From an uncultured Desulfobacteraceae bacterium (GTDB lineage Bacteria; Desulfobacterota; DSM-4660; Desulfatiglandales; B25-G16), in the NCBI GenBank assembly GCA_964611035.1, contig CAZSWT010000003.1, positions 6,219 to 70,218 on the forward strand: 64,000 bases of DNA, given 5' to 3'. Made by a program: the position numbers and the translations under genes. How positions within the stretch are numbered: the stretch's first letter is position 1; every line of letters starts with the position of its first letter. The notes beneath the pieces are model-generated. The model ran no database searches and was not told the origin of the DNA. It worked only from the letters and a program-made list of their open reading frames with translations. Shown here in pieces: positions 9 through 44,840 of this stretch.

Positions 9-200
9 GTTAAACAAAAGCACAAAGGCATTCCACCCCAGTTGAATCCCCTTTGGGGTGCTCTTGGTGGAGCAATTCACCCCGGTGAAATACGCTGCGC
101 CAAGTTAAATACGCTTCGCTCAGACTTTGTCTATTTCACCCGGCAAGCTGTTGCTATTGCAAATTTCACAGGGCACAGCGGGGTAAAGATTGCGGATTGA
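9..200. repeat. dispersed intergenic repeat, family A, copy 1 (at window edge)
   Basis: 9-32 gttaaacaaaagcacaaaggcatt matches 62492-62515 at 22/24. 34-80 caccccagttgaatcccc..ggagcaattca matches 1845-1891 with about 5 mismatches. 182-191 ggtaaagatt is identical to 62532-62541. Confidence 0.7.
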
Positions 201-280
201 AAAACTACAAAGACAGGAAACGATGGATTGGCCAATTCTTTCGATGGTATTTCATTGAGCCAACTGCTTTGCTTCCTCAA

Positions 281-634
281 TTACCTTAAAAATTGAAGGT
301 TCCTCAGCAAAACCACTTTATTCGGAAGGTGTTTGTGATGGGGAAAACTCTTAACCCCTGGAAAATGCGGAGTATTGTCGTAGCGAAAGACAAGATTGTT
401 TTATCTATCCTGGAGGTGATAGCGATAGCCAAGATGCCCGATTTGGCTTGTTTGAACAATAGCCGCATCATTCAATTCCAACAGATATCCGCTCGGAAAA
501 TGAACTCGAATACGCAAGTTCACACGATTAGTTGCCAGAATCTCCTCTTCGTAATGCTCGACATAGACGCCTTCTAACTTGCGAATCGCAGCCTCAACAT
601 TTTTAAGGTATTTAGCCAGTAAATTAAGCAACAT
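281..634 (-). pseudogene. TumE/DUF6516-like TA component interrupted by an in-frame TAA
   Basis: The 77-aa ORF 401..634 ends ..YRYHLQDR at TAA (401-403). The same frame continues NNLVFRYDNTPHFPGVKSFPHHKHLPNKVV to TAA at 281-283. The YRYH..FRYDNxPH..FPHHKH pattern is what I recall for DUF6516/TumE. Its ATG overlaps the stop of the upstream small ORF (ATGTTGCTTAA). Confidence 0.5.
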
Positions 635-18300: not shown

Positions 18301-19160
18301 AACATTTTAAGACAACACTCGCAGATTTTGTGGCCCAAGGATTGCCTCTGCCCAATCCGATCCAGGAAAAAGCCACCTTGCTTGAAGCTTCAAAAACTAA
18401 AAACAAACCCCAGGAGCTGGTTAAATGGATACTGGATAATCAGGACGACCTGAAAAAACTTCATGAGCAAGTAAGCCAGGTAAAGGATTTTGTTGAGAGC
18501 AATAAACTCGCGCTTCAAAACGCGTTACCTCTTATTAAAAGAGCCGAGGCCTCCCAGGTACTGAAGCAGAAAGATAAGGACGGCTCAATCCCGGAAGCGA
18601 TCAACCAGCTCAAACACCTCATCGAAAACCGTGAGGTGGTGTCCAAATGGGCCGATTTTCAGACCTATCGTGCAGTAGTGGAAAACGCTTATCGTTCAGC
18701 CTATGAAGAGTATAGGAAGGCATTTGGAAAAGAGGTGCAAGCACTTGAACAAAGTGTCAAAACACGGCCTAAATTTGCGTCCCTGCAGTCTGATAAACAG
18801 GAAACCGTCTTTACAAAATGGTTTGGCAGTCATGGGCTTGTAAGGGCCGGAATCTCACAACATCCTGTTGGCACTCTCAAAGAGCTGTTAGATGCGGATC
18901 AAGCCACTTCCCTCGATGCCCTGGCAGGTCGTGTCGGGACTGTTCCAGGGCTGTTAGCCGATATCCTTGTGGACATTCAAGAATTAGGCAGAAAACCAGA
19001 AGAAGAGGAGAGAGAACCAAGGATGCGCACGTGGCGGCCAAAGGCTATCACAAAGGGCATGGTCATCCGAAAAGATGAAGCGATGGAAATCGCCGATGAA
19101 TTTAGACAGGAATTGGAAGAGCAGTTTGAAGAAGGCGTGGAGGAAGTCATTATCCAATGA
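15396..19160 (+). CDS. brxC: BREX P-loop ATPase BrxC/PglY
   Basis: The track ORF starts at 15357. The likely ATG is 15396 (GGAGGA upstream, just after the brxB stop). About 1254 aa. Walker A GFFGTGKSH, Walker B FFVVDEVGQF, long helical C-terminus. Confidence 0.9.
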   Translation: MSTKLKEVLKKDLVRDKVDPTVKVDDNKRLYIDIREFVITEEIAVDALKLVRAISGQLQELQRGSIPQAVVDACWLSGFFGTGKSHLAKLIAALIQNPVLTHKEISLSALELFYQTHEPINQVEKDLEAELKTLSRLANPVLIVFEITAAKKGVHDSLSEIFLRKFFEGLGYASSLWIARIERDLDERGLYDEFKKAVSDKGMGNWEEERRASQRVPAILMQVLPEVDSTYYRNEADVEAGIEKAEDEDEASPEGLVEEINRYLERKAQGGDGRIPLAFFVVDEVGQFIAANSERIEEIRSIVERGAMVGNGRIFTVMTSQEDLAAAIGGVVKGDQMNKLNARFGVKIDLKSQNVAKIVQERLLIKTPTGATQLTESFRDWEGPISEIENLQLRGVSYPTSDPASFTAHYPLLSYQVQLAQDILATLRGPRLSGTERSMIQIVQEAVAARSEDDLGVLIPFDAVFEANESELSSIHHLGTHGVREINGSDKKLGWSDTTDFAQPSRILKVLYLIQRLEEKRWIPQKADTITKLMADHVEINLSALREKVTKGLEKLVSASMVSFDGESYHFLSQEEREIEQYFLDRKGKVRIPDLERDIKDRGRAILAANKITDGTQQYQLRYGSSGQGLFGFETKLDGEVISPSGGGPLQLEIYTPLSGVKLEQIRTLNLADGPQGKTVYWIADESQKADLAETLRQIRALEETINHYQPKADRDEISAAAKDAVRKKNTDLTRAQKKADDFISQTFMKGRLLFSGEEHTLPAPEADSLKKVLAIAGNVVILNLFDRFHLADKAYDDKDSVYKAIFNPAGNLATLEGIRNFNLVDTQGHIKAQTGIVSEMQGVLTALENTQAVVKAQDIRHKLQDIPYGWPRGAIQLGSAALFRCGQIEITHKGNPVYDFRQLQDAYKVFSKISSFDALEIRSVTDILTPEEIQTTYLFCKNTLQMEDVTESVNDIFLHFRDYRTGLEHFKTTLADFVAQGLPLPNPIQEKATLLEASKTKNKPQELVKWILDNQDDLKKLHEQVSQVKDFVESNKLALQNALPLIKRAEASQVLKQKDKDGSIPEAINQLKHLIENREVVSKWADFQTYRAVVENAYRSAYEEYRKAFGKEVQALEQSVKTRPKFASLQSDKQETVFTKWFGSHGLVRAGISQHPVGTLKELLDADQATSLDALAGRVGTVPGLLADILVDIQELGRKPEEEEREPRMRTWRPKAITKGMVIRKDEAMEIADEFRQELEEQFEEGVEEVIIQ

Positions 19161-22100
19161 GCAGCTACGGTCTCAGTTCGGAAACCAAGAAGTCGGTCAA
19201 ATCAACGGTCCTCGCTTTAAGGAAGTTATTAGAAGGCGAGTTTGATCCTGATACCGGTGAGCCTATTCCGCCCGGCGGTGACGTCGCGAGGCAAATCTCA
19301 CGATATGGCATTTTAGTGAATAAGCCTGAGTCGCTCAAAAACGAAAATGCTCCAGATTATCTGACTGATGAAGAAAAGAAGAAACGAGAACGCATCTCTG
19401 CAGCCATAAAGCGTGAGGTCGCTATTTTTGGAAAGCTCTCTGATAAGGCCGCTTTGAGACGAGGCATGCGGGCATTTATTCGCCAAACCAGCTATACCTG
19501 GGTAAACCGTCTCTTGGGCCTTCGGTGCATGGAGGCACGGGGGTTGCTCAAGGATGATCGTGGTGAGCTTGATTTTGTGGTTACTCCTTCGGATGATTAT
19601 GGAGGACTGCCTCGAAGGGCGTGGCGAATCAAAGGGGAAGATCCTGCAAAGTGGCAGACTGCCAAGCTATATGATCTTCAGTGCGAAGCCATCGCTGACG
19701 CCTGTCGCCAGCTTACTCAAGAAATCAAAGTCTTATTTGATCCTGAACATGACTACGGCCTCATCTGGCCGTCGCCCCCGGCCTTAAATACTCTCCTTCA
19801 AAAGATTCAAGAATTGGATAAGATTGCAACCCCCAGCCCTTTTACATCACCAGATTTCTTAGGATGGGTCTACCAATATTTCCAGACCATAGACAAAGAT
19901 CTGGTATTTAAAGCCGCTTCTAAAAAGAAAAAGAAGATAGAAAAAGACGATATTATCCCTGCGACACAAATCTATACCGAACACTACATGGTGGAATATC
20001 TGGTCCAGAATACCTTAGGCAGGTTCTGGTTGGAGATGCACCCCGACTCCAAATTATCGGCAAAATGGGCTTATTACGTAAAACCTCCTGAAGAAAACCC
20101 ACCAATTGAAAGAGAACTCAAAAAAGCGATTGAGATCAAGCTGATGGACCCTGCCCTGGGAAGCGGGCATTTCCACTTGGTTGCCTTTGATCTGCTTTTG
20201 GATATGTATGAAGAGGAAATTGAAAATGCTGGTCAACCCGGATGGCCGGACACTCCTTCAGTCGAAGACAAAAAGGATATTCCTGCCGCCATATTGGAGC
20301 ATAACCTGTTCGGAATTGACATAGATGCCCGCTCCATTCAGCTTTCCTCTTTGGTACTTGTGATGAAGACTCGTGAGTCCGGTTATGATGGACCAATTGA
20401 CCATCTCAATTTGGTAGTGGCCAATAGCGCCCCATTTGAATCTGAGGCATGGTATCAATTCCTCCACAGCTTGGAAAAAGAGGGAAAGCATAGTGTAGCC
20501 AGGGTTCTGGCTGCCCTGGGTATCCAGCTAAAAAACCTGGATGAATTCGGATCGCTCCTTCGCATCGAAGATGAGATGCAAAAGATTATTCAAGACGAGA
20601 AGAAGCAATGGATAGTTCAGGCTAAGATGGGTCCAGAACAAGATTACCTTTTCCCTGAAATGGCCAAGCCCAGGCAAGAAAAACTACCCTTTGAGACTGC
20701 AATTACGGACGAAACTTTTTTTGATCGCCTGGGGTCTGCGGTTGCAATAGAACTTGATAGCTTTTATCAAAAGGCGCGACAGGAAGGTTTTGCAGAAGAG
20801 GCTATTATGGTTGCCGATGCAGAGCGAGGATTTGACTTTGCTAAACTGACTCTTCAGCGATATGATGTAGTTTATACGAACCCTCCTTATATGGGTAGTG
20901 GTAATATGGGGGATCTTCTGAAGCAGTTCATAAATGCTTATTACAAACCTGGAAAAAGAGATCTTTATGCTGCTTTTATTCTGCGTTGCTGCGCTCTTAC
21001 CAGTGAGAATGGCTATGTTGGGATGGTAACCCAACATGGCTGGATGTTTTTAAGAAGCTTCGAGGATTTACGCGCTGTCCCCGAAAAAAAGCTCATAAAG
21101 GGCAATTTCGCAGGTCTTTTGCGCGAGGGACGTTTTGAAACACTGGCTCACCTTGGACCAGGAGCATTTTCCGAAATCAGTGGTGAAGTAGTGAACACTG
21201 CACTCTTTTCCTTCAAAAATATACCACCTATTCCTGAACACAGGCTAACAGCATTCCGAGTCCTCGCAGCAAAGCACCCTGAGCAAAAGGCAGAGTTTTT
21301 ACGTGAAGCAGTGGGAGTACTACCATAGTACTTCTGGCGAGCGAATCATACACTTAAAAGTTACACAAGGAGTAACAGAGTGATCAAGACATCTTCTATT
21401 CATCCAGCTGTTTTTCAGCCTCGTCAGAGCCGCTTTATAGACATCCCACAGGCACCATTTTCTTATTGGTTGAGAGATCGTTTTTTGGAGCTATTGTCAG
21501 GTCTGACGCTCGACAAGGTGTCAAAGGTGTGCCAAGGCCTTGTTACTGCGGACGATACTCGATTTGTTCGTTTCTTTTGGGAGGTTTCTTCCAAGATCTG
21601 GTTAAAACCTCTTGACGCACGACACTGGGTAGGCTTCGTAAAAGGGGGTGGGTATGGTAGATGGTACGGCCAGCAATATTGGGTAGTGGACTGGGAAAGA
21701 AATGGAGAAAGAATTAAGGCGTCATCAAATCCTCGAGTTCAAAACGAGAGTTACTATTTTAAAGAGGGGTGGACCTATAGCTATATGGCTAGAGGATCAC
21801 TTGGGGTACGACAGCTCCCAAAGGATATTATCTTCTGTGACCTATCTGCGGGTGTATTTCCCAACAGACAATTGCCCGGACTCTCCATTTGTCTAAATTC
21901 TCGGTTATCATCGTTCATTATTCGGGCAATTAGCCCTAGAATTCAACTGCGTGAAAGCTATGTTCAAAGGATCCCTCTTCCCAAGAAAATACCTAACTCA
22001 TTTTCATTGGTTGAGAATATTCTTGTTGGTTTGAAAAAGCGTTTGGTCGAAAGAGACGTGATCGAAATGACTTTTACAAACTGGAAAATTGGAAATATGA

Positions 22101-23452
22101 CGCTGAGGAGCTGCTATTTTTCTAAAATACAGGATTCCGAGGTCATTGCAACAGCCTTGCATACAATAGAAGCTGTTTGCGAAAAATTGTTGATAAATGC
22201 TTACAGCCTCGACGAGGAAGATACTGCTGCGGTTATGGCCGAAACTGGAGAACCCTCAGGGTGGTTTCCATTGATTAGAGGTTACGATACTATACCAGAA
22301 GTCCCGCAGGGGATTTTCAATTTACCCGAGGAGATAATGAACCATTTTGAGAGTCAAAAAAGAGAGAATCTCTCCCATGATGAACTGGATACGATTAAAC
22401 TGCGTCTAAAGGTTCTATATGAAGCAGGGCCAGGTTCAAAAGCTGAAGATGAAAAGAATTTGGAATCCTTTGGAGATGATGATAAAAAAAACTTTGATAA
22501 AGGAGCACGTATACCTATCCCTGCTGATACCTTTATTGAAGAGCTTTCCCATAAGCTCAAAATACACCCGATATCTATCTATTGGCTCCTTAAAGAAATG
22601 CGTGAAAAAGAAGATCTTGTATGTCCGTCGGAATTAAAACTGTATGCTGAGGACTATGTAAGCGTCATGATTATCCATATGCTGGGTTACCAGTGGCCAA
22701 AGCAAGTTGAAGCAGGTGAACCTCTGCCCGATTGGGCCGATGACGACGGGATTATTCCGCTTACCGATGGATTGGGAGAAACAACTTTATTGGATCGGAT
22801 AAGAAAACGTTTTGGTGCGGATTTTAGGGAAGAAAAAGAAGCATCCATAGAGTCTGAGTTTTATAATATTGTTGGGAAATCTCTGGAACGGTGGCTGGAG
22901 GAAGACTTGTTTGCTCGGCATGTGAAGCAGTTTAAGAATCGGCCCATTGCCTGGCATATTGTTAGTGATCCTTCTGTGGTTAACCATGAGACAGGGCAAA
23001 GCGGAAAGGGGAAAAGGAAAGGTGGCAAGAAAAAACATAAACCCGCTTTTTCTGTGATGATTCATTATCACCGTTTTGTGGATGGAGATAAAGGATATGG
23101 GAAGCTGTTGCGCCTGAAAAACAAATACCTTGAAAAACTTATGTCCCAGACACGATCAGAATTGGAATCCCTACGCGGCAGAGGAGATGACCCTAAAACC
23201 TTTGATCGTATAGCTGAATTAGATCGAAAATTGGTTGAATTAGAGGATTTCAGGGAGAGATTGGAGCGGATTCAGGAGGGTAAGGACCCTGAATCAAGTA
23301 TATTTGTACGGTGGAAAAGCACTGAGGAACAGCCCCAGGGCTGGAGGCCGGACATAAACGATGGTGTAAAAATAAATATCGCACCATGGGAACGCCTTGG
23401 GATGTTTCCTGTTAAAAAAATTGTCGGAGAAGTCGAAAGGGCGCCTGTGTAA
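19157..23452 (+). pseudogene. pglX: BREX N6-adenine DNA methyltransferase PglX, split by one in-frame TAG
   Basis: ORFs 19157..21328 (723 aa, with LMDPALGSGHF and YTNPPYMG methyltransferase motifs) and 21380..23452 (690 aa, with IPQAPFSYWL and DINDGVKINIAPW PglX-type motifs) are in the same frame. They are separated only by TAG (21326-21328) plus 17 sense codons. ATGA overlap with brxC. Confidence 0.85.
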
Positions 23453-28404: not shown

Positions 28405-29463
28405 ATGAAGAAAAGAGTGGCTAGGTCAAATGTGAAGTTTAACCCGGTCTTAAGCTCTGATTCGGCAAAAAAGGCTAGATTGGATTCATTTGCAAGCCCA
28501 AAGCATCCCAAATCGATTTGTGTCGTTAATTATAAAGGGGGAGTAGGCAAAACGACGATTACGTGTTTATTGGGCTATTATATTAGCCAACTTGGTGTAA
28601 GAGTGAAAAGGGGAAAAGGAAGTTTAAAAAGAGGTAGAAAGGTTCTTCTGCTCGATATTGACCCGCAATGTAGCTTGTCTTTGGCTGTTGGTTTCGATCC
28701 TGAACAGGTTAATAAGACGGATTTTACTATGTATAATTTGGTTAGGCCTTCGAAGTGGTCAAAAATTACCAAAACCAAATTCAGTCAGTACATTCAGAAG
28801 GTTCCCGATTCGCTAGCTCCAAAGGATTTATATATTATTCCCGGTTCATTTGATGTTGATGATCTTGACATGGAGATTGCAAAAAGCATCGCAATTGATG
28901 GAGAAAGAAGGAAGGATGAGTTATTTCTATACTGCAAGCAAATGCTTAACGGATTTCAAGATTATGATTTTGTGATTGTTGATTGCCCTCCAAACAAAAT
29001 GTTCCTTACGCAAGCAATGCTTAGGGCGTCTACTTATTATCTGCCTGTAACTATCCCCGACCAAATATCTATCTATGGGATGCCGCGATTACTGAGATGG
29101 GTTAGAAACATCCCAAAAGGTGAAAGACCACTTATGCTTGGCTATGTCATGAATGCCATAAATCGCACTGGCGGCCCACCAGGTGGTAAAGTATATAGCC
29201 AACAAATAGGGGAAAGAGATTTAGAAAAGAGTATAAGAAATGATCTAATGCCGATTGAAAGGAAAATTTTCGGCACAAATCCGATTGTGGGACAAATACC
29301 CAGATTGGATAGAATTGCGAAATTTCTTTCAGAAAGGGGAAGTAAGTTTACCAGATTTGAATTTTCTGAGAGAACTTCTGGGCAAGCTACAATTGAGGAA
29401 TGCGTTACCGAAATAGTCAAAACAATTTTTGAAAGGATAAAAAAGTACAATGCCGAAACATGA
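28405..29463 (+). CDS. ParA/Soj-family ATPase with atypical insertions
   Basis: 352 aa. AAGGAG SD. Deviant Walker A KGGVGKTT (aa 44-51) and Walker B VIVDCPP. It has a basic N-terminal extension of about 37 aa and a 14-aa VRVKRGKGSLKRGR insert before LLLDIDPQ. Confidence 0.8.
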   Translation: MKKRVARSNVKFNPVLSSDSAKKARLDSFASPKHPKSICVVNYKGGVGKTTITCLLGYYISQLGVRVKRGKGSLKRGRKVLLLDIDPQCSLSLAVGFDPEQVNKTDFTMYNLVRPSKWSKITKTKFSQYIQKVPDSLAPKDLYIIPGSFDVDDLDMEIAKSIAIDGERRKDELFLYCKQMLNGFQDYDFVIVDCPPNKMFLTQAMLRASTYYLPVTIPDQISIYGMPRLLRWVRNIPKGERPLMLGYVMNAINRTGGPPGGKVYSQQIGERDLEKSIRNDLMPIERKIFGTNPIVGQIPRLDRIAKFLSERGSKFTRFEFSERTSGQATIEECVTEIVKTIFERIKKYNAET

Positions 29464-29854
29464 AATAATACATAAGGCCGGTCAACCTATTACCGAGGAA
29501 ATAAGGTGGATAGTTGATAGATATTTTTATTTAAAAGAGATCGAAAAGCTCGAAAGATTAGGAGGTCGAATTTTGATTTCTATTGCAACACCTTATAAGA
29601 GTAAGAAGCCTAAAGGAATTACTATCGACGAAACATTTGTCGACAATCTTAAATCGAATAGAAATGATGTTGTTGAATTGAGAAATATTTTGGATGGATT
29701 AACAATAAAACAGTTAAAAGAGGCTTGCAGCTTAATTAAGCACCCGGTGCGATCGAATGCCACATCCGAAGAAATTAAAAGAGAACTTATTAGGAGCCTG
29801 CAAGCAGAGGATTTTTGGAGTCGAATTTCTCACAATAATAAAGAAAAATTATAA
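29450..29854 (+). CDS. small hypothetical protein with HeH/SAP-like C-terminal motif
   Basis: 134 aa. Overlaps the ParA-like gene by 14 nt. LDGLTIKQLKEACSLIK...SEEIKRELIRSL weakly resembles helix-extended-helix DNA-binding motifs. Confidence 0.5.
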   Translation: MPKHEIIHKAGQPITEEIRWIVDRYFYLKEIEKLERLGGRILISIATPYKSKKPKGITIDETFVDNLKSNRNDVVELRNILDGLTIKQLKEACSLIKHPVRSNATSEEIKRELIRSLQAEDFWSRISHNNKEKL

Positions 29855-30049: not shown

Positions 30050-30319
30050 ATGAACAAAAGGGATTTAGTTAACGAGGTAGCAAAGGTCGTAAATACAAAA
30101 AAAGAGGCCAAGGTAGCAGTGGATTGTATTTTTTCAACCATTACCAAAGCATTAAAAAAGAAGGATCCGGTTACACTGATTGGTTTCGGAACCTTTAAAG
30201 TGGCACAAAGGAATGCCAGGAAAGGAAGAAATCCACAGACAGGACAAGAAATGACGATCAAGGCAAAGAAGGTCCCCAAGTTTGTAGCTGGGAAAGCCTT
30301 AAAGGATGCTGTAAGTTAA
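30050..30319 (+). CDS. hup: DNA-binding protein HU
   Basis: 89 aa. MNKRDLVNEVA..., the GFGTF..R.AR.GRNPQTG arm and a ..KAGKALKDAV end are a classic HU signature. GGAG SD. Confidence 0.9.
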   Translation: MNKRDLVNEVAKVVNTKKEAKVAVDCIFSTITKALKKKDPVTLIGFGTFKVAQRNARKGRNPQTGQEMTIKAKKVPKFVAGKALKDAVS

Positions 30320-30607
30320 TCATTATTAAAGGAGGATTGTAGTAATCAGGAAGGGAACATGGCCTCATATGGGCTTTGATATTTCTATCATATCCAAACT
30401 CTTGTAGTGTTGCACTTGTGAGTTGAATTCAGTCCTCATTAGTTGAAGATGCTGAGGTAACTATTCCCAAAATTTTGTCTTTGGCTTAAACTTGTGTTTA
30501 GTATAATATATCATCATTAGCCACAGATTTAGAATTGATATTAAATTAAAGCATGTAGCACGCTTCCCGTGGTTTGAAATGGTCATATAAGAATTCGACA
30601 GGTTCCT

Positions 30608-33325
30608 ATGACATCGATACCTGAATTTCAAAAAGCCCTAAAAAAGAATACCACTACGTTGGGAGCTCGGTGGGTGAAGGCTGACTTCCACGTTCATTAC
30701 CCAGGTTCGTCGGATTATGAGTACAAAGAATTGGACGCCGTGGAACGTCTAGGCAAGGAACTCGATACTGAAAATTATCGCTTTGTGGTGATTCTGAAGC
30801 ATCAAGAGTTTCCAACCAGAGCCGAGCTATATGAATTAGGCAAATACTGCCCTAAGACTATTTTAATCCCGGGAGCTGAAATAAACGTCTTTGTGGAAGC
30901 CATGTTCATGAAGGTTTCCAAGGATCACTATTTCCATTGCGTACTGGCGGTTAATCCTGACTCAGATGGAGACTACGGCTATATCCTTCATCTAGCTCAA
31001 GATAAATTTTCCTATAAATCAGGTGACTACCCATCGGGTTTTCATTCGAGCATTCTTGATCTCGGCAAGTTCTTCCGAGATCAGGGCGCCCTTTTTCTCC
31101 CCGCTCACCTTCATCAAGCGAAGGGTCCCCACAAATCAAAAAGTATCGATGACATATATGACGATGATGCCTTTCTCAGTTTTATCGAGGACGGGGCGTT
31201 TTCCGCCCTTGAAGTTAGACAGAGGTCAACTGCAGCATTCTTCGCTGGGGGTCGGCAGACTGAAAATGGACGGGCCATTCCAAAGGCTGTATGCGTACAG
31301 TCAAGCGATGCCCACAGTTACATGCATATCAAAGAGCGACAACGATGCTCATGGATTCAAGTCGAGCGTCCAACGTTTAGTGAATTTGAAGCATCTCTGG
31401 TATTCCCGCATCGTCTTTCCCTGGACCAACCATCCGAGCCTAAGCAGCGTATACTCGGTCTTCATATCATAGGAGCTTTTTTCCCTGAGTTATGGATCAG
31501 CTTCAACCCTTGCATGAATTCCTTGATTGGATGCAAAGGCACAGGCAAGACCTCAGTATTAGAGTGCCTTCGATTTTTGTTCGGCACCGCGGTGCCGAAG
31601 GAACGCTTCGAGGGGGTAGCGCGTCATATAGAGCATATTCTAGGACCTAGCGGCATAGTTGAGTGTCTTGTACAACGTGAGGATGAGAAGCGCTTTGTCT
31701 TGTCACGCCGAGCAGATTCTCCACAGCGTTTGAATGTTACCAGCGAGGGCGGTCTATCCCAAGACGCGACCAAAATGGAAACTTATTTTGACGTGTCGAT
31801 ACTGGGATGGCATGAGATTGAGGCCGTTGCTGATGATGCGTCCGCTCGAATACAACTTATCGACGGTATAAAGGGTGCCCAAATAATCCGTCAGCACTAT
31901 TCTGCTATTGAAAAATACATTCAACAAGCGCGAGATGATCTCCCAGTTTTACAGCAACGCCTCCGACGCTTGGATGAGGCACTGAAGGAGCTGTGGGAGC
32001 TACGCAGGAAGCGTGAGACGCTTACGAAACTGGAAAAGGCTGAGCTAGTAGCACTGCAGAATCAGTATGAGTGGTATCTCAAAGCTGAGGAAAAGTTACG
32101 AGGCCACTCAAAAAGACTTCAAAAACATCGGAAAAATGTGATTAATCTCCTACCCTTTGACCTCGGTGGTTCACTAATTGAAGATCTAGGAAGCCCGATA
32201 CCACCGGAAGTCCAACCCGGAATCGACAGGGCCACGAATGCTCTCATCGAATTGGCGAAAAGCGACACCGAACAAAGCGAGACCTTACAAGAAAGAGGTT
32301 CCGGGGTCAACGCTACTATCGAAAGTGCGATCGGTGAGGTTGTGCAACATTTCACGGTATTTCGAGATGAGGTCTACAACCCAAAAGTTCAGCAATTGCC
32401 TCCCGAGGAACGAGACATTTTAACTCGTCAAATCCAAATACTGGAGGAGACACGATCCCTCCCCCAGATGGAGGAAGATTGCAATAGCTTGCACTCAGAG
32501 GTTGTGAAACTTGCCTCAGTGATTGAAGCGATTTGTACAAACGTTTGCAAAGAACGTGATGAAATATGCCTTATCAGGGAGAAAGTAATCGCCGAACTGA
32601 ATGAGGATCTGGACAGTGTACACCTTACTTTCCAACGTTGCGGTAACAAATTACGGTTGGATTTGTACCGGAGCAAGTATGCAAAAGAGAGTGGAGAATT
32701 CATCAACTTCTTGCAAGGGTACGGACGCTCGGAATCATACGAGAATTTTCGTGAGGTTTTCAGGAGTCTTCGCGATATGGACGTCGACGCAAAGGCATGG
32801 GAGGTGAACGAAGTGATGTGGGATGTAAAGTTCGTGGAATTCCTTGACATTGTGGACGATGACGATGTCGAGATTTCACTTGAAGTCGGGAGTGCGGGCT
32901 TCGTCCCAATCCAGAACCTGTCGGCGGGACAACGATGCACCGCAGTGTTTCCACTATTGCTACGTAATGCTCGCGGGCCTTTGGTGATCGATCAACCCGA
33001 GGATAATCTCGACAATCGGCACATTGCGGATACGATCTCGGTCGACCTCCTGAACCGTAAATTACGGCAGCAGTATATTCTCACGTCCCACAACGCGAAT
33101 CTTGTGGTACTTACGGACGCCAATTTGATATTCCACATGGATTCGGATGGTCAGCGCGGGTGGATCGAAACTGCAGGATTCCTTGCGTGTCCTGAAAGTG
33201 ACATCCGAGGCCCAGTGCTTGAAGTTCTAGATGGAGGTGAGGCTGCGCTTGAAGCTCGACGGCGGAAGTACGGTTCGGTTGATACCACCAAACGCTCGGG
33301 TGATTATGTATCGATAAAAAGTTAA
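30608..33325 (+). CDS. PHP phosphoesterase domain fused to Rad50/SbcC-like ABC ATPase (Ppl-like)
   Basis: 905 aa. PHP His/Asp motifs ADFHVHYPGSSD (aa 25-36), LPAHLH (164-169), SSDAHS (232-237). Walker A GCKGTGKTS (308-316). Helical stretch of about 250 aa with a Pro/Gly loop (514-538). ABC signature LSAGQR (771-776), Walker B LVIDQPEDNLD (792-802), H-loop TSHN (826-829). Confidence 0.8.
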   Translation: MTSIPEFQKALKKNTTTLGARWVKADFHVHYPGSSDYEYKELDAVERLGKELDTENYRFVVILKHQEFPTRAELYELGKYCPKTILIPGAEINVFVEAMFMKVSKDHYFHCVLAVNPDSDGDYGYILHLAQDKFSYKSGDYPSGFHSSILDLGKFFRDQGALFLPAHLHQAKGPHKSKSIDDIYDDDAFLSFIEDGAFSALEVRQRSTAAFFAGGRQTENGRAIPKAVCVQSSDAHSYMHIKERQRCSWIQVERPTFSEFEASLVFPHRLSLDQPSEPKQRILGLHIIGAFFPELWISFNPCMNSLIGCKGTGKTSVLECLRFLFGTAVPKERFEGVARHIEHILGPSGIVECLVQREDEKRFVLSRRADSPQRLNVTSEGGLSQDATKMETYFDVSILGWHEIEAVADDASARIQLIDGIKGAQIIRQHYSAIEKYIQQARDDLPVLQQRLRRLDEALKELWELRRKRETLTKLEKAELVALQNQYEWYLKAEEKLRGHSKRLQKHRKNVINLLPFDLGGSLIEDLGSPIPPEVQPGIDRATNALIELAKSDTEQSETLQERGSGVNATIESAIGEVVQHFTVFRDEVYNPKVQQLPPEERDILTRQIQILEETRSLPQMEEDCNSLHSEVVKLASVIEAICTNVCKERDEICLIREKVIAELNEDLDSVHLTFQRCGNKLRLDLYRSKYAKESGEFINFLQGYGRSESYENFREVFRSLRDMDVDAKAWEVNEVMWDVKFVEFLDIVDDDDVEISLEVGSAGFVPIQNLSAGQRCTAVFPLLLRNARGPLVIDQPEDNLDNRHIADTISVDLLNRKLRQQYILTSHNANLVVLTDANLIFHMDSDGQRGWIETAGFLACPESDIRGPVLEVLDGGEAALEARRRKYGSVDTTKRSGDYVSIKS

Positions 33326-33711
33326 CTACTGAAGGCGTCAGCCAATAAGGGATGTTATAGCTGCTGAACAGGGCGTGAATAACCAACTCGTAATTTAGGT
33401 AACACTGTTGACTATCGTGACTAATGTTTAATGACATATGAAAATTCTGATATAACTACCTGCGCTACTGCTATATATCCCTAATTATTACAATCTTAAG
33501 AATCCTTTGATATTCACTCCAAATCCCAAATTTAGAGTTTAGGCTTTTCACGAAAACGGCCTCCAACAAGGTAGATATTCAGATCGAATCCAAACAACAA
33601 GGAATCGCATGTCAGTCTTATTCCTGATTATCCCATATTCTCTGTGAAAATATCCCAATCCGTAAATCCACTTTCTCGATACCTGCTATCCTCTGCATTC
33701 GCCTTAATACC

Positions 33712-33740
33712 TTGACAAAATGATGTGCTGAAAGTAATTT
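33712..33740 (+). promoter_or_regulatory. candidate sigma70-type promoter for the IHF-like gene
   Basis: TTGACA (33712-33717), 17-nt spacer, TAATTT (33735-33740), 48 nt before the ATG. Confidence 0.3.
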
Positions 33741-33787
33741 GGCTCAGTGATAACAACTTGAAAACTTACCCCATAGAATAACCAGCC

Positions 33788-34072
33788 ATGACCCTCACCA
33801 AAGCAGATATTGTCGATACTATTTACAACCAATTAGATGTCCCTAAAACCAGATCCACACAGGTGATTGAATCCCTTATAGAAATTATCAAAGAAACCCT
33901 GGAGAATGGTGAGGATGTCTTGATCAGTGGATTTGGAAAATTCTGTGTCAAAGAAAAGATGAAAAGGAAAGGGAGAGATCCTCAGACCGGGAATGATTTG
34001 ATGCTGGGTGAGAGAAAGGTGGTAACTTTCAAGTGTTCTGGAAGATTAAAGAATAAGATCAATGGAGTTTAG
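33788..34072 (+). CDS. ihfA: integration host factor alpha-like (HU/IHF family)
   Basis: 94 aa. MTLTKADIVDTIY.., ..ISGFGKF.VKEK..R.GRDPQTG.., the IHF-alpha style N-terminus and beta-arm. Confidence 0.75.
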   Translation: MTLTKADIVDTIYNQLDVPKTRSTQVIESLIEIIKETLENGEDVLISGFGKFCVKEKMKRKGRDPQTGNDLMLGERKVVTFKCSGRLKNKINGV

Positions 34073-44132: not shown

Positions 44133-44840
44133 TTATTCAAACAGGCCCATCAATCTTTTTAGTCTCTTTATTGCCCTGGGGAGAATCTCACCAATCTCTT
44201 CATTAAATCTCAGGTTTGTGCGATGATCAAAGGGGGTGTCTCCTTTATTAATGATCACCAATTTTGCTCCAGAGCGAAGGGCCTCCAGAGGCATGTCTGC
44301 TGCTGGTGTTACTACCAAGCTTGATCCAACAACCAAAAAAAGGTCACTTTTTCGAGAATGCTCAAAGGAAAGCCTTAGATCTTTTTCAGGAAGGGACTGC
44401 CCAAAATCTACTACACTTGAGACCAATGTGCCTCCACACTGACACATAGTCATGCCAGTGGACTTGTTAACCTTTTTATCGCATCTCGTGCACCGAAGTT
44501 TGGTCATATTCCCATGAAGCTCAGCCAGCAGATCAGGATTTATCCCTGATTTTAAATGGAGATTATCTACATTTTGAGAGATAAGAAATTTTAATTTGCC
44601 CATTTTTTGGAGATCAACGATAGCAATGTGGCCGCTATTTGGCTCAACTGAATCCCAAGAGCGGTTCAAAGGTTTTGGAGCAAGTCCTTTATCTCTCCGG
44701 GTCCATAGACCGTCAGGACCTCTGAAATCAGGAAGTCCTGATTCAGTGCTGATTCCAGCGCCAGTAAAAACAACGAGATGTCTAGATTCATATAACCATT
44801 CAGAAAGGATTTGAATTCTTTTTTCAAGATCTTTTTCCAT
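44133..44840 (-). CDS. cobB: NAD-dependent protein deacylase (Sir2 family)
   Basis: 235 aa. GAGISTESGLPDFRG, QNVDNLH, a Zn ribbon CxxC..CxC and a VVGSSLVV Rossmann end. Confidence 0.85.
   Translation of the reverse strand: MEKDLEKRIQILSEWLYESRHLVVFTGAGISTESGLPDFRGPDGLWTRRDKGLAPKPLNRSWDSVEPNSGHIAIVDLQKMGKLKFLISQNVDNLHLKSGINPDLLAELHGNMTKLRCTRCDKKVNKSTGMTMCQCGGTLVSSVVDFGQSLPEKDLRLSFEHSRKSDLFLVVGSSLVVTPAADMPLEALRSGAKLVIINKGDTPFDHRTNLRFNEEIGEILPRAIKRLKRLMGLFE

What the first reader, a model, noticed from the sequence alone, without database searches (positions are those of the whole stretch)
30608..33325. Stand-alone PHP-domain / Rad50-SbcC-type ABC ATPase fusion on a G+C-richer insert at the centre of the defence region
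SEEN: a single 905-codon ORF containing the window midpoint. It has PHP-type metal-ligand motifs (ADFHVHYPGSSD aa 25-36, LPAHLH 164-169, SSDAHS 232-237) and Walker A GCKGTGKTS (308-316). A Leu/Lys/Glu/Arg-rich helical stretch of about 250 aa is broken by a Pro/Gly loop (LLPFDLGGSLIEDLGSPIPPEVQPG, 514-538), with no CxxC hook. The C-terminus has the ABC signature LSAGQR (771-776), Walker B LVIDQPEDNLD (792-802) and H-loop TSHN (826-829). My hand counts of single 60-nt lines inside the gene give about 53-60% G+C, versus about 35-42% in flanking genes. The gene sits alone between 288-bp and 462-bp non-coding gaps. KNOWN: head/coiled-coil/head ABC ATPases (Rad50/SbcC, RecN, OLD, GajA, AriA) work with a nuclease partner. 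Here a PHP phosphoesterase is fused in cis in place of SbcD/Mre11 or Toprim. From memory, a PHP+ATPase single-gene antiphage candidate was listed as Ppl (Gao et al. 2020) with no mechanism. INFERENCE: a horizontally acquired, self-contained nuclease that senses DNA ends or DNA structure, next to BREX. Its mechanism is essentially undescribed.
Basis: partly seen in the sequence, partly recalled or inferred. Interest (0 to 1): 0.8.

Follow-up and report, generated by a model that had tools for sequence, protein, structure and literature searches.

The report
Stand-alone Ppl-like PHP nuclease–ATPase gene
This is an intact single gene that fuses a metal-dependent PHP nuclease domain to a Rad50/SMC-type ATPase; it is a distant, unnamed relative of the anti-phage protein Ppl and of TrlF, sits next to a BREX system, and most likely defends against phages, so it is a new branch of a known kind rather than something unprecedented.

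Summary
An AlphaFold model (pLDDT 85.5) shows an N-terminal PHP barrel, which matches EndoQ, RNase AM and Pol III-alpha PHP domains. It also shows a Rad50/SMC-type ABC head split by a ~245-aa coiled coil with no zinc hook.

Only the G+C claim fails. The gene is 48.0% G+C, not 53-60%, and brxC is 47.4%.

The protein belongs to the PHP-ATPase superfamily that holds Ppl, TrlF and Spaf_1101, but it falls below all three curated cut-offs. It defines an unnamed clade (about 180 homologues, 47-79% identical, in several phyla) with these features:
- PHP metal ligands are canonical, as in Ppl. TrlF has QxN in place of HxH.
- The ATPase is more TrlF-like.
- The Q-loop position reads GWH instead of Gln.
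- There is no conserved partner gene.

Of 12 contexts, 5 carry BREX, restriction-modification or other defence-type genes, and 3 others carry integrases, a transposase or a Rep gene.

Most likely function: a single-gene, Ppl-like, nucleotide-gated 3'-5' exonuclease for defence. The Ppl mechanism was published in 2026, so "mechanism undescribed" is out of date. Verdict: new variant of a known kind, moderate interest.

The parts
30608..33325 (+). Complete gene for a 905-aa PHP / SMC-like ABC ATPase fusion protein. It belongs to an unnamed clade of the Ppl/TrlF/Spaf_1101 superfamily.
   Evidence: ORF. NCBIfam TrlF 285 bits, Spaf_1101 152, Ppl 138, all below cut-off. 183 homologues. AF2 model pLDDT 85.5, pTM 0.73.
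30662..31432 (+). PHP (polymerase and histidinol phosphatase) domain, aa ~19-275. Candidate metal ligands: H28, H30, D36, H65, E91, H110, H167/H169, D234, H236.
   Evidence: Domain model pLDDT 91.9. Foldseek hits to EndoQ 5zb8 (E 8e-7), TM0559 2anu, RNase AM 7ug9/9etk and Pol III alpha PHP 3e0d/2hpi/4iqj. Ligand residues are invariant or >=90% conserved in 49 homologues. They align with the DFHNH...SDAH motifs of E. coli Ppl.
31448..31867 (+). ABC ATPase head, N-terminal lobe (aa ~281-420). Walker A is GCKGTGKT (K314). The Q-loop-equivalent segment ILGWHEIE (397-405) has W401/H402 where relatives have Gln.
   Evidence: Pfam SMC_N/AAA_23/AAA_15. Rad50 5dac aligned at 279-346. Foldseek hits to SMC/MukB/JetC/Rad50/RecF/RecN heads. 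GWH in 61/61 clade members against GQN in 20/23 TrlF.
31877..32608 (+). Antiparallel coiled-coil arm (aa 424-667). The ascending helices are 424-514 and the descending helices 536-667.
   Evidence: DSSP on the AF2 model. Low sequence conservation, as expected for a coiled coil. A near-identical strain carries an in-frame 5-aa deletion here.
32150..32212 (+). Apex of the coiled coil (aa 515-535). It is a Pro/Gly-rich loop with no Cys, so it has no Rad50-type CxxC zinc hook.
   Evidence: Sequence and Cys positions. Break between helices 478-514 and 536-595, with pLDDT 63-78.
32609..33277 (+). ABC ATPase head, C-terminal lobe (aa ~668-890). It carries the signature LSAGQR (771-776), Walker B/D-loop VIDQPEDNLD (D795, Q796 at the usual catalytic-Glu position, E798, D802) and the H-loop SHN (H828).
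   Evidence: Pfam AAA_21 727-833. Invariant columns. The Rad50 chain 5dac aligns as LDQPTTNLD. DQPEDNLD is shared by all classes of relatives.
30320..30607 (+). Upstream non-coding gap of 288 bp (35% G+C). It holds a terminator-like hairpin after the HU gene, so the target is probably transcribed on its own.
   Evidence: Terminator-like site 30361-30375(+). The consensus scan found no sigma-70-like site in the gap. No Rfam family. G+C value.
33326..33787 (+). Downstream non-coding gap of 462 bp (38% G+C), before the second HU/IHF-like gene.
   Evidence: No Rfam hit and no repeat pairing with the upstream gap beyond a 25-nt match at 72% identity.

Best explanation
The gene encodes a self-contained defence nuclease of the Ppl type. 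It is carried on the chromosome of an uncultured bacterium that looks like a Desulfobacterales member.

Shown by computation:
- An N-terminal PHP domain keeps a complete canonical metal-ligand set.
- It is fused to a Rad50/SMC-type ABC ATPase head, whose two lobes are separated by a ~245-aa antiparallel coiled coil without a zinc hook.
- There is no conserved partner gene.
- The gene has a patchy, multi-phylum distribution, often beside restriction-modification or BREX systems or mobile-element genes.

Inferred from the family:
- Two protomers dimerise by sandwiching nucleotide between Walker A and the signature motif, as all Rad50/SMC/RecN heads do.
- The PHP domain is a metal-dependent 3'-5' exonuclease acting on DNA 3'-OH ends.
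- At normal cellular NTP levels, nucleotide bound to the ATPase (and possibly to the PHP site) keeps the nuclease off.
- Phage infection depletes nucleotides and creates free 3' ends. This releases the block, and the enzyme degrades replicating phage DNA. This mechanism is reported for E. coli Ppl.

Where this clade may differ:
- The ATPase has Gln at the usual catalytic-Glu position (D795-Q796), as does the whole superfamily.
- It has Trp-His where relatives have the Q-loop Gln.
- The ATPase may therefore act more as a nucleotide sensor or clamp than as a fast hydrolase.
For: - Fold and motifs: PHP fold and SMC/Rad50 head. The model is confident. Catalytic residues of both domains are invariant across 49 homologues at 47-79% identity.
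- Homology to the experimentally characterised Ppl is collinear over the whole length, PHP domain included: hhalign probability 99.8%, E 1.4e-28, residues 18-887 against 2-887. Ppl shares the DFH.H / DH / GxE / H / AH / SDAH motifs.
- The Ppl mechanism (3'-5' ssDNA exonuclease, NTP inhibition, 3'-OH sensing) is taken from PMC12904381 and from ref. 51 of PMC13434339.
- Stand-alone status: clustering of flanking ORFs found no conserved neighbour in 12 loci of this clade. The same method recovers TrlG next to TrlF (15/23) and kinase/regulator or SpoIIE partners next to the ATPase-only relatives.
- Contexts: BREX-1 in the window; type IIG RM, an RT and an AAA_21 ATPase; type I RM, YgjP and PIN; GmrSD and type IIG RM; Mrr_cat, patatin and ParE/Phd; integrase/Rep/transposase.
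- Horizontal spread: the host's NrdD is 82-83% identical to Thermodesulfobacteriota MAGs. The named homologues of the target are Planctomycetota, Nitrospirales, Vicinamibacterales and Parvibaculaceae, at about 50% identity.
Against: - No experiment exists for any member of this clade.
- Identity to E. coli Ppl is only 19-23%. The protein fails the Ppl, TrlF and Spaf_1101 curated cut-offs. Its PADLOC Ppl score of 103 bits is no better than that of TrlF (122).
- Two of 12 contexts look purely housekeeping and two more are uninformative.
- No close homologue was found on recognised viral contigs or phage genomes.
- The Q-loop substitution and the D-Q Walker B raise the possibility that ATPase regulation differs from Ppl.
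- Pfam's own PHP model does not reach E<=1.
- The primary Ppl paper could not be read, so the mechanistic details are second-hand.
Confidence: 0.6

Rival explanations
1. It is a TrlF-type module. TrlF is part of the 'temperature restricting locus' of Photorhabdus, which arrests growth together with TrlG (Schlafen/AlbA_2 + HATPase_c_4) and the small regulator TrlR.
For: The best-scoring named family is TrlF: 285 bits, matched end to end at 19-889 against 2-944/944. The ATPase half is closer to TrlF than to Ppl (hhalign E 1.8e-36 against 1.4e-28). The DQPEDNLDN, SHNAN and KYG motifs are shared. The TRL operon is described in bioRxiv 10.1101/2020.06.02.129163.
Against: The score is below the curated cut-off of 350, while true TrlF proteins score 488-581. 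No AlbA_2/HATPase_c_4 gene is adjacent in the window or in 11 other contexts; the only one in range, in L001, lies about 4.8 kb away, beyond an ATPase gene and an RM gene, and lacks HATPase_c_4. TrlF proteins have QxN and DV[AE] where this protein keeps HxH and DAH (23/23 against 61 clade members). hhalign to TrlF does not even align the PHP half.
Confidence: 0.1
2. It is a housekeeping factor for DNA repair or chromosome maintenance. One version is a one-polypeptide analogue of SbcCD/Mre11-Rad50 or RecN. Another links it functionally to the neighbouring ParA-like, HU, HU/IHF and ParB/ParA genes.
For: It has a Rad50/SMC/RecN-type head. In the window it lies between two HU-family genes and next to ParB/ParA and a ParA-like gene. 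Sources annotate homologues as 'RecN', 'RecF' or 'chromosome segregation protein'. One homologue lies near polA and fpg.
Against: The HU/ParAB neighbourhood appears only in the same strain (L009) and in none of the 11 other contexts, including the 73%-identical homologue. The distribution is patchy across phyla, with only about 73 cluster representatives at 50% identity for the PHP domain among 1.84 billion proteins. That is unlike a core repair gene. Frequent RM, BREX and integrase neighbours point the other way.
Confidence: 0.1
3. It is an accessory component of the adjacent BREX type 1 system, for example a nuclease effector recruited by BREX.
For: It lies 2.3 kb downstream of brxL on the same strand. 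BREX loci are known to carry variable accessory genes (general knowledge).
Against: Three unrelated genes (ParA-like, a 134-aa ORF, HU) and a terminator-like site separate it from brxL. None of the 11 other contexts of clade members contains BREX genes.
Confidence: 0.05

Closest known systems
Ppl (Gao et al. 2020 single-gene anti-phage system; E. coli WP_240725016.1-type; NCBIfam NF042955, PADLOC PDLC02208; mechanism in Xu et al., Mol Cell 2026)
   Same: Ppl is also a single polypeptide of ~890 aa with an N-terminal PHP carrying canonical HxH...DxH ligands, an ABC ATPase head split by a coiled coil, and the DQPED(N/D)LD Walker B. It has no partner gene. The two are collinear by profile comparison from residue 18 to 887.
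   Different: Identity is only 19-23%. The window protein scores 138 bits against a cut-off of 1000 (NCBIfam) and 103 against 1824 for real Ppl (PADLOC). Ppl keeps the Q-loop Gln (SQK), where this clade has GWH. This clade has a ~14-residue insertion between PHP ligands E91 and H110, and a TrlF-like C-terminal lobe (SHNAN, KYG). It is found in Thermodesulfobacteriota, Planctomycetota and other phyla rather than in Enterobacterales plasmids.
TrlF (Photorhabdus temperature restricting locus; NCBIfam NF045780)
   Same: TrlF is the best-scoring named family and matches end to end. Length and architecture are the same. The ATPase motifs are very similar: GxGKT/S...LS.GQ...DQPEDNLDN...HNAN...EGG..A...KYG.
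   Different: The score is below the curated cut-off (285 against 350). TrlF's PHP has QxN and DV[AE] in place of HxH and DAH. TrlF is usually followed by TrlG (15/23 loci), which this gene lacks. TrlF's Q-loop reads GQN against GWH here.
Rad50/SbcC with Mre11/SbcD
   Same: Both have an ABC head with a long antiparallel coiled-coil insertion that works with a metal-dependent nuclease. The best PDB sequence and fold matches are to this group.
   Different: Here the nuclease is a PHP barrel fused in cis, not a separate calcineurin-fold Mre11/SbcD. There is no CxxC zinc hook, the coiled coil is much shorter, and there is no Q-loop Gln and no catalytic Glu after the Walker B Asp.
OLD-family / Gabija GajA and PARIS AriA-type ABC ATPase defence proteins
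   Same: These are defence ATPases of the ABC/AAA_15/AAA_21 type coupled to a nuclease. GajA is likewise reported to be inhibited by nucleotides (general knowledge). They give weak PADLOC hits.
   Different: Their nuclease is Toprim, not PHP. Only the Walker A or the C-terminal lobe aligns (E 1e-4 to 2e-11). GajA works with GajB and AriA with AriB, whereas this gene has no partner.

Membership tests
Ppl (strict: NCBIfam NF042955 equivalog / PADLOC PDLC02208) | Full-length match to the curated family model, above its cut-off | tested here: not met
   NCBIfam 138.1 bits against a cut-off of 1000. PADLOC Ppl 103 bits, best stretch only 750-885, where genuine E. coli Ppl scores 1824 bits over its full length and TrlF scores 122.
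Ppl (strict) | Architecture: N-terminal PHP with canonical metal ligands plus an ABC ATPase with a coiled coil, in one polypeptide | tested here: met
Ppl (strict) | Single-gene system with no conserved partner | tested here: met
   No conserved neighbour in 12 clade loci. Twelve varied contexts.
Ppl (strict) | Anti-phage activity; NTP-inhibited 3'-5' ssDNA exonuclease that senses 3'-OH ends | not testable with these tools
   Known only for E. coli Ppl, from PMC12904381 and ref. 51 of PMC13434339.
TrlF (NCBIfam NF045780 equivalog) | Score at or above the curated cut-off of 350 bits | tested here: not met
   285.2 bits. Close homologues score 285-292 and the DLHNH sister clade 306-322. True TrlF proteins score 488-581.
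TrlF | Operon partner TrlG (SLFN_AlbA_2 + HATPase_c_4) directly downstream | tested here: not met
   The window neighbours are HU, LRAT and ParB. TrlG is present in 15/23 TrlF loci and adjacent to none of the 12 clade loci.
TrlF | Characteristic N-terminus FWKCALQVNP, with QxN in place of HxH | tested here: not met
   The window has ADFHVHYP. QN occurs in 23/23 TrlF, and HH in 12/12 clade loci and 45/49 aligned homologues.
Spaf_1101 family (NCBIfam NF045781) | Score at or above the curated cut-off of 475 bits | tested here: not met
   152.4 bits, mainly from the C-terminal lobe at 762-890.
PHP superfamily (polymerase and histidinol phosphatase fold) | Distorted (beta/alpha)7 barrel with His/Asp/Glu metal ligands (HxH ... 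H ... E ... H ... H ... DxH) | tested here: met
   Foldseek gives 19 PDB hits at E<=1e-3. All are PHP-fold or related metal-dependent phosphoesterases and nucleases: EndoQ, TM0559, RNase AM, Pol III alpha, PolC and others. The ligands are conserved. Caveat: the Pfam PHP model gives no hit at E<=1, and NCBIfam CehA/McbA metallohydrolase gives only 21 bits.
Rad50/SbcC | CxxC zinc hook at the coiled-coil apex, and a separate Mre11/SbcD nuclease gene | tested here: not met
   No Cys at 515-535. No Mre11/SbcD-type gene nearby. Rad50 NCBIfam models score <=20 bits against cut-offs of 700-1000.
Rad50/SMC-type ABC ATPase (superfamily level) | Walker A, signature motif, Walker B, D-loop and H-loop on a head split by a coiled coil | tested here: met
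   Deviations: W401/H402 at the Q-loop position, and Q796 instead of Glu after the Walker B Asp.
BREX type 1 (as a component) | Recurrent co-occurrence with the brx/pgl genes | tested here: not met
   BREX is present only in the window and absent from the 11 other contexts.

The most novel reading that the evidence does not exclude
This clade may be a third, mechanistically distinct lineage of stand-alone PHP-SMC nucleases. Its ATPase head has Trp-His at the Q-loop position and Gln at the catalytic-Glu position. It may no longer hydrolyse ATP and may act purely as a nucleotide-level sensor or DNA clamp that gates a fully canonical PHP exonuclease. If so, it would have triggers or substrates different from E. 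coli Ppl. It would also be one arm of a modular family in which the same ATPase scaffold is wired to a cis nuclease (this clade and Ppl), to a Schlafen-like TrlG partner (TrlF), or to kinase/response-regulator or PP2C phosphatase partners (the ATPase-only relatives).
Probability: 0.15. Interest if true: 0.6.

Novelty: new variant of a known kind. Interest (0 to 1): 0.4.

Why it matters
Ppl is the only experimentally studied PHP-ATPase defence protein. This work shows that its architecture recurs in a separate, well-conserved clade. That clade fails the curated Ppl, TrlF and Spaf_1101 models of NCBIfam and scores no better than TrlF on the PADLOC Ppl model, so it may go unrecognised in uncultured anaerobes and planctomycetes.

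The clade combines a Ppl-like catalytic PHP with a TrlF-like ATPase that has an altered Q-loop. That makes it a natural comparison for working out which features set nucleotide gating and DNA-end sensing.

It also helps place TrlF. TrlF's PHP site looks degenerate and depends on a TrlG partner, and it sits in the same family as a set of ATPase-only relatives that are linked to signalling genes.

For annotation, the practical result is modest. The gene should be called a Ppl/TrlF-superfamily PHP-ATPase and a putative defence nuclease, not 'RecN', 'RecF' or 'chromosome segregation protein'.

Tried and rejected
- **Pfam scan for PHP.** No PHP hit at E<=1. The fold had to be shown from a predicted structure.
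- **PDB by sequence and by profile.** Only Rad50/SMC heads came up, with no Ppl or TrlF structure. The full-length Foldseek search was dominated by SMC heads, so a separate PHP-domain model was made.
- **Primary Ppl paper** (PMID 41344330). It is not held, and literature searches for it in the library failed. The mechanism is therefore taken from a review and a citing paper.
- **'G+C-rich insert'.** Rejected as evidence of transfer. The gene is 48.0% G+C against 47.4% for brxC, and there are no att-like repeats and no adjacent tRNA.
- **The two flanking HU genes as a recent duplication around an insertion.** Rejected, because they are only 28% identical.
- **RNA elements in the flanks.** No Rfam hit. 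The consensus scan found no promoter in the upstream gap.
- **ParA-like, 134-aa ORF, HU and LRAT as partners.** Rejected. They are not conserved next to homologues and give no PADLOC hits.
- **Phage or plasmid carriage.** Only distant relatives (<=27% identity) occur in the plasmid, phage and IMG/VR collections.
- **Comparison with the near-identical contig L009.** It added no information on the regulatory region.


Full report
**1. Observation**

The ORF 30608..33325(+) exists, starts with ATG and encodes 905 aa. The flanking non-coding gaps are exactly 288 bp and 462 bp.

The composition claim is overstated:
- The gene is 48.0% G+C (GC3 48.2%). Only 24% of its 60-nt lines reach 53%.
- The window averages 41.7%. 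Immediate neighbours are 34-42%.
- brxC (47.4%), parA (46.9%) and nrdD (45.7%) are nearly as G+C-rich as the gene.

No att-like direct repeats flank the gene. The only tRNA is 24 kb away. The two flanking HU-family genes are only 28% identical, so they are not a recent duplication.

The window is chromosomal. It carries capsule export genes (2-10 kb), a BREX type 1 cluster (brxA 14089 to brxL 28292), then a ParA-like gene, a 134-aa ORF and HU. After the target come HU/IHF, an LRAT-family gene, ParB/ParA, NrdD and a molybdopterin oxidoreductase. Further on are purD, lapB, amiC, lnt and infB. NrdD is 82-83% identical to proteins of Thermodesulfobacteriota/Desulfobacterales MAGs, which identifies the host lineage.

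**2. What the protein is**

*Family searches.*
- Pfam sees only the ATPase (AAA_21, SMC_N, AAA_23) and no PHP.
- NCBIfam matches three related curated families, all below their cut-offs: TrlF 285 bits (cut-off 350, end to end at 19-889 against 2-944/944), Spaf_1101 152 (cut-off 475) and Ppl 138 (cut-off 1000).
- The PADLOC Ppl model gives 103 bits. By calibration, genuine E. coli Ppl scores 1824 bits on that model, Photorhabdus TrlF 122, and an ATPase-only relative 74. The PADLOC hit therefore shows superfamily membership only.

*Structure.*
- An AlphaFold2 model built from 49 homologues is confident (pLDDT 85.5, pTM 0.73).
- It shows an alpha/beta barrel at 21-252 and an ATPase head made of residues 281-420 and 668-890.
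- An antiparallel coiled coil (424-514 up, 536-667 down) has a Pro/Gly apex at 515-535 that contains no Cys.
- The full model matches SMC, MukB, JetC, Rad50, RecF and RecN heads (E 1e-13 to 1e-7).
- A separate model of residues 1-280 (pLDDT 91.9) matches PHP-fold enzymes: EndoQ (5zb8, E 8e-7, TM 0.56), TM0559, RNase AM, and the Pol III alpha and PolC PHP domains.

*Conservation across 49 homologues (47-79% identity).*
- Invariant in the PHP domain: H65, E91, H110, H167, H169, D234, H236.
- At least 90% conserved in the PHP domain: D26, H28, H30, D36. Together these make a full canonical PHP ligand set.
- Invariant in the ATPase: K314 (Walker A), S772/G774/Q775 (signature), D795-Q796-P797-E798-D799-N800-L801-D802 (Walker B and D-loop) and H828 (H-loop).

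**3. Relationship to named families**

A scan of species-representative genomes found at least 593 relatives. Among the 86 loci examined they fall into three architectures:
- **(A)** About 890 aa with a DxHxH N-terminus. This includes the window clade, at 44-47% identity in Planctomycetota MAGs. It also includes a 'DLHNH' sister clade at 33-35% in Gammaproteobacteria and Gemmatimonadota MAGs and in the cyanobacterium Phormidesmis.
- **(B)** Genuine TrlF proteins, about 885 aa, with the N-terminus FWKCALQVNP.
- **(C)** ATPase-only proteins of about 625 aa.

In a direct alignment with E. coli Ppl (plasmid NZ_CP091655.1, annotated 'anti-phage protein Ppl') and with TrlF, the window protein shares the canonical PHP motifs of Ppl: DFH.H, DH, GxE, H, AH, SDAH. 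TrlF instead has QxN and DV[AE] at the first and last motifs, in 23/23 sequences.

Profile comparison agrees with this. The clade profile aligns with Ppl end to end (residues 18-887 against 2-887, probability 99.8%, E 1.4e-28). It aligns with Photorhabdus TrlF only from residue 232 onwards, but with a better score there (E 1.8e-36). The protein thus combines a Ppl-like catalytic PHP with a TrlF-like ATPase.

Two ATPase peculiarities stand out:
- The residue after the Walker B Asp is Gln, not the usual catalytic Glu. This holds in all classes and in Ppl. The crystallised Rad50 chain 5dac aligns here as LDQPTTNLD.
- At the Q-loop position this clade has invariant G-W-H (61/61). TrlF has G-Q-N and Ppl has S-Q-K.

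The PHP domain of this clade is rare. A full phmmer pass over 1.84 billion cluster representatives found 73 hits at E<=1e-3, many of them fragments.

**4. Genomic context of homologues**

Clustering the ORFs that flank 86 relatives gave these results:
- No conserved neighbour for class A (12 loci).
- The same method recovered TrlG (SLFN_AlbA_2 + HATPase_c_4) downstream of 15 of 23 TrlF genes.
- It also recovered conserved kinase-like plus response-regulator genes (24 loci) or SpoIIE phosphatase genes (15 loci) downstream of the ATPase-only relatives.

Twelve Pfam-annotated contexts of the window clade are all different:

| Context | Neighbouring genes |
|---|---|
| Window | BREX-1 |
| L001 | RVT_1 reverse transcriptase + HTH, AAA_21 ATPase, MmeI-type RM, AlbA_2 |
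| L092 | Type I RM + YgjP + PIN |
| L098 | GmrSD + type IIG RM |
| L008 | Patatin, Mrr_cat, ParE/Phd |
| L007 | Integrase + Rep |
| L006 | PDDEXK_3, with a transposase 7 kb away |
| L094 | DUF2971, small ORFs, integrase |
| L095 | Small unknown ORFs |
| L096 | Trypsin_2-TPR protein |
| L003, L093 | Housekeeping genes |

The HU/ParB context of the window recurs only in a near-identical strain contig (L009). Only distant relatives occur in the plasmid, phage and IMG/VR collections.

**5. Mechanism**

The best-supported reading is a single-gene, Ppl-like defence nuclease.

Shown: the two folds, the intact catalytic residues, the absence of a partner gene, and the variable contexts, many of them of defence or mobile-element type.

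Inferred from established knowledge of Rad50/SMC heads: nucleotide-dependent head dimerisation.

Inferred from published work on Ppl: a PHP 3'-5' exonuclease on ssDNA 3'-OH ends, held inactive by NTPs bound to the PHP and NTPase domains, and released by phage-induced nucleotide depletion together with 3' ends. The sources are a review (PMC12904381) and Xu et al., Mol Cell 2026;86:180, cited as ref. 51 in PMC13434339. The primary paper was not available.

The D-Q Walker B and the W-H Q-loop suggest slow or absent hydrolysis. That would fit a sensor or clamp role, but this is speculation.

Rival readings score lower for the reasons given in their entries. They are a TrlF-type TrlG-dependent module, a housekeeping repair or segregation factor, and a BREX accessory gene.

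**6. Comparison and novelty**

The kind is known. A PHP plus SMC-like ATPase single-gene defence protein was named Ppl by Gao et al. 2020 (from my own knowledge), and its mechanism is now described. TrlF is the related operon-embedded form (bioRxiv 10.1101/2020.06.02.129163).

The window protein fails the tested membership criteria of Ppl, TrlF and Spaf_1101. It belongs to an unnamed, conserved sister clade with its own signature: DxHxH, then GWHEIE, then LSAGQR, then DQPEDNLDNR. I rate it a new variant of a known kind, with moderate interest (0.4). A specialist would not be surprised by the architecture. The clade, its Q-loop change and its mosaic resemblance to Ppl and TrlF are new details worth an experiment.

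Noticed in passing
window 19157-21328 and 21380-23452 (+): The BREX methyltransferase gene pglX is split into two ORFs of 723 aa and 690 aa, separated by 51 nt. They match positions ~54-453(+) and 626-922 of the same 1174-position PADLOC PglX model. It could be a natural split, a pseudogene or a phase-variable state.
   Followed up: partly
L017:9749-14012, L021:9983-12950 and 44 other loci: ATPase-only relatives (~625 aa, no PHP domain) lie in conserved operons. 24 have a HisKA/HATPase_c kinase-like gene plus a response-regulator gene directly downstream. 15 have a SpoIIE/PP2C phosphatase gene. PADLOC gives only weak mad3 and Ppl hits. This may be an undescribed multi-gene system built on the same ATPase scaffold.
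   Followed up: partly
L061:9749-12406 (Photorhabdus akhurstii), L055, L022 and 20 other TrlF loci: Genuine TrlF proteins have QxN in place of the PHP HxH motif and DV[A/E] in place of DxH (23/23). Their PHP site therefore looks degenerate. 15 of 23 are followed by TrlG (SLFN_AlbA_2 + HATPase_c_4). The Listeria plasmid proteins annotated 'TrlF family' keep HxH but have DCK at the last motif.
   Followed up: partly
window 28405-29463 and 29450-29854 (+): Directly after brxL lie a 352-aa ParA/AAA_31-like ATPase with a basic insert (…RVKRGKGSLKRGRK…) and an overlapping 134-aa ORF. The ParA-like protein has no PADLOC hit, and the 134-aa ORF has neither a Pfam nor a PADLOC hit. Their role (BREX accessory, partition or mobile-element remnant) is unknown. 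They recur only in the same-strain contig L009.
   Followed up: partly
window 32273-32287 (aa 556-560 of the target), compared with L009: A near-identical strain from JGI metagenome 3300031351 carries an in-frame 5-aa deletion (QSETL) and an adjacent E-to-K change in the coiled-coil arm. These are the only differences in 905 residues.
   Followed up: no
L093:2600-10679 (JGI 3300031351, 181-kb contig): The same metagenome holds a second organism with a 50%-identical homologue, located 2.7 kb from polA and fpg. The Photorhabdus TRL operon also lies next to polA. This is probably coincidence.
   Followed up: no
window 30050-30319 and 33788-34072 (+): Two divergent HU/IHF-family genes (28% identical) bracket the target. 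Together with the ParA-like gene and ParB/ParA, this makes an unusual concentration of nucleoid and partition genes around an SMC-like gene. It is not seen around any homologue from another organism.
   Followed up: yes
window 44133-44840 (-): A 235-aa Sir2-family protein lies 11 kb downstream. It has no PADLOC hit at E<=1e-5, so it is probably a housekeeping CobB-type deacetylase rather than a defence Sir2.
   Followed up: partly
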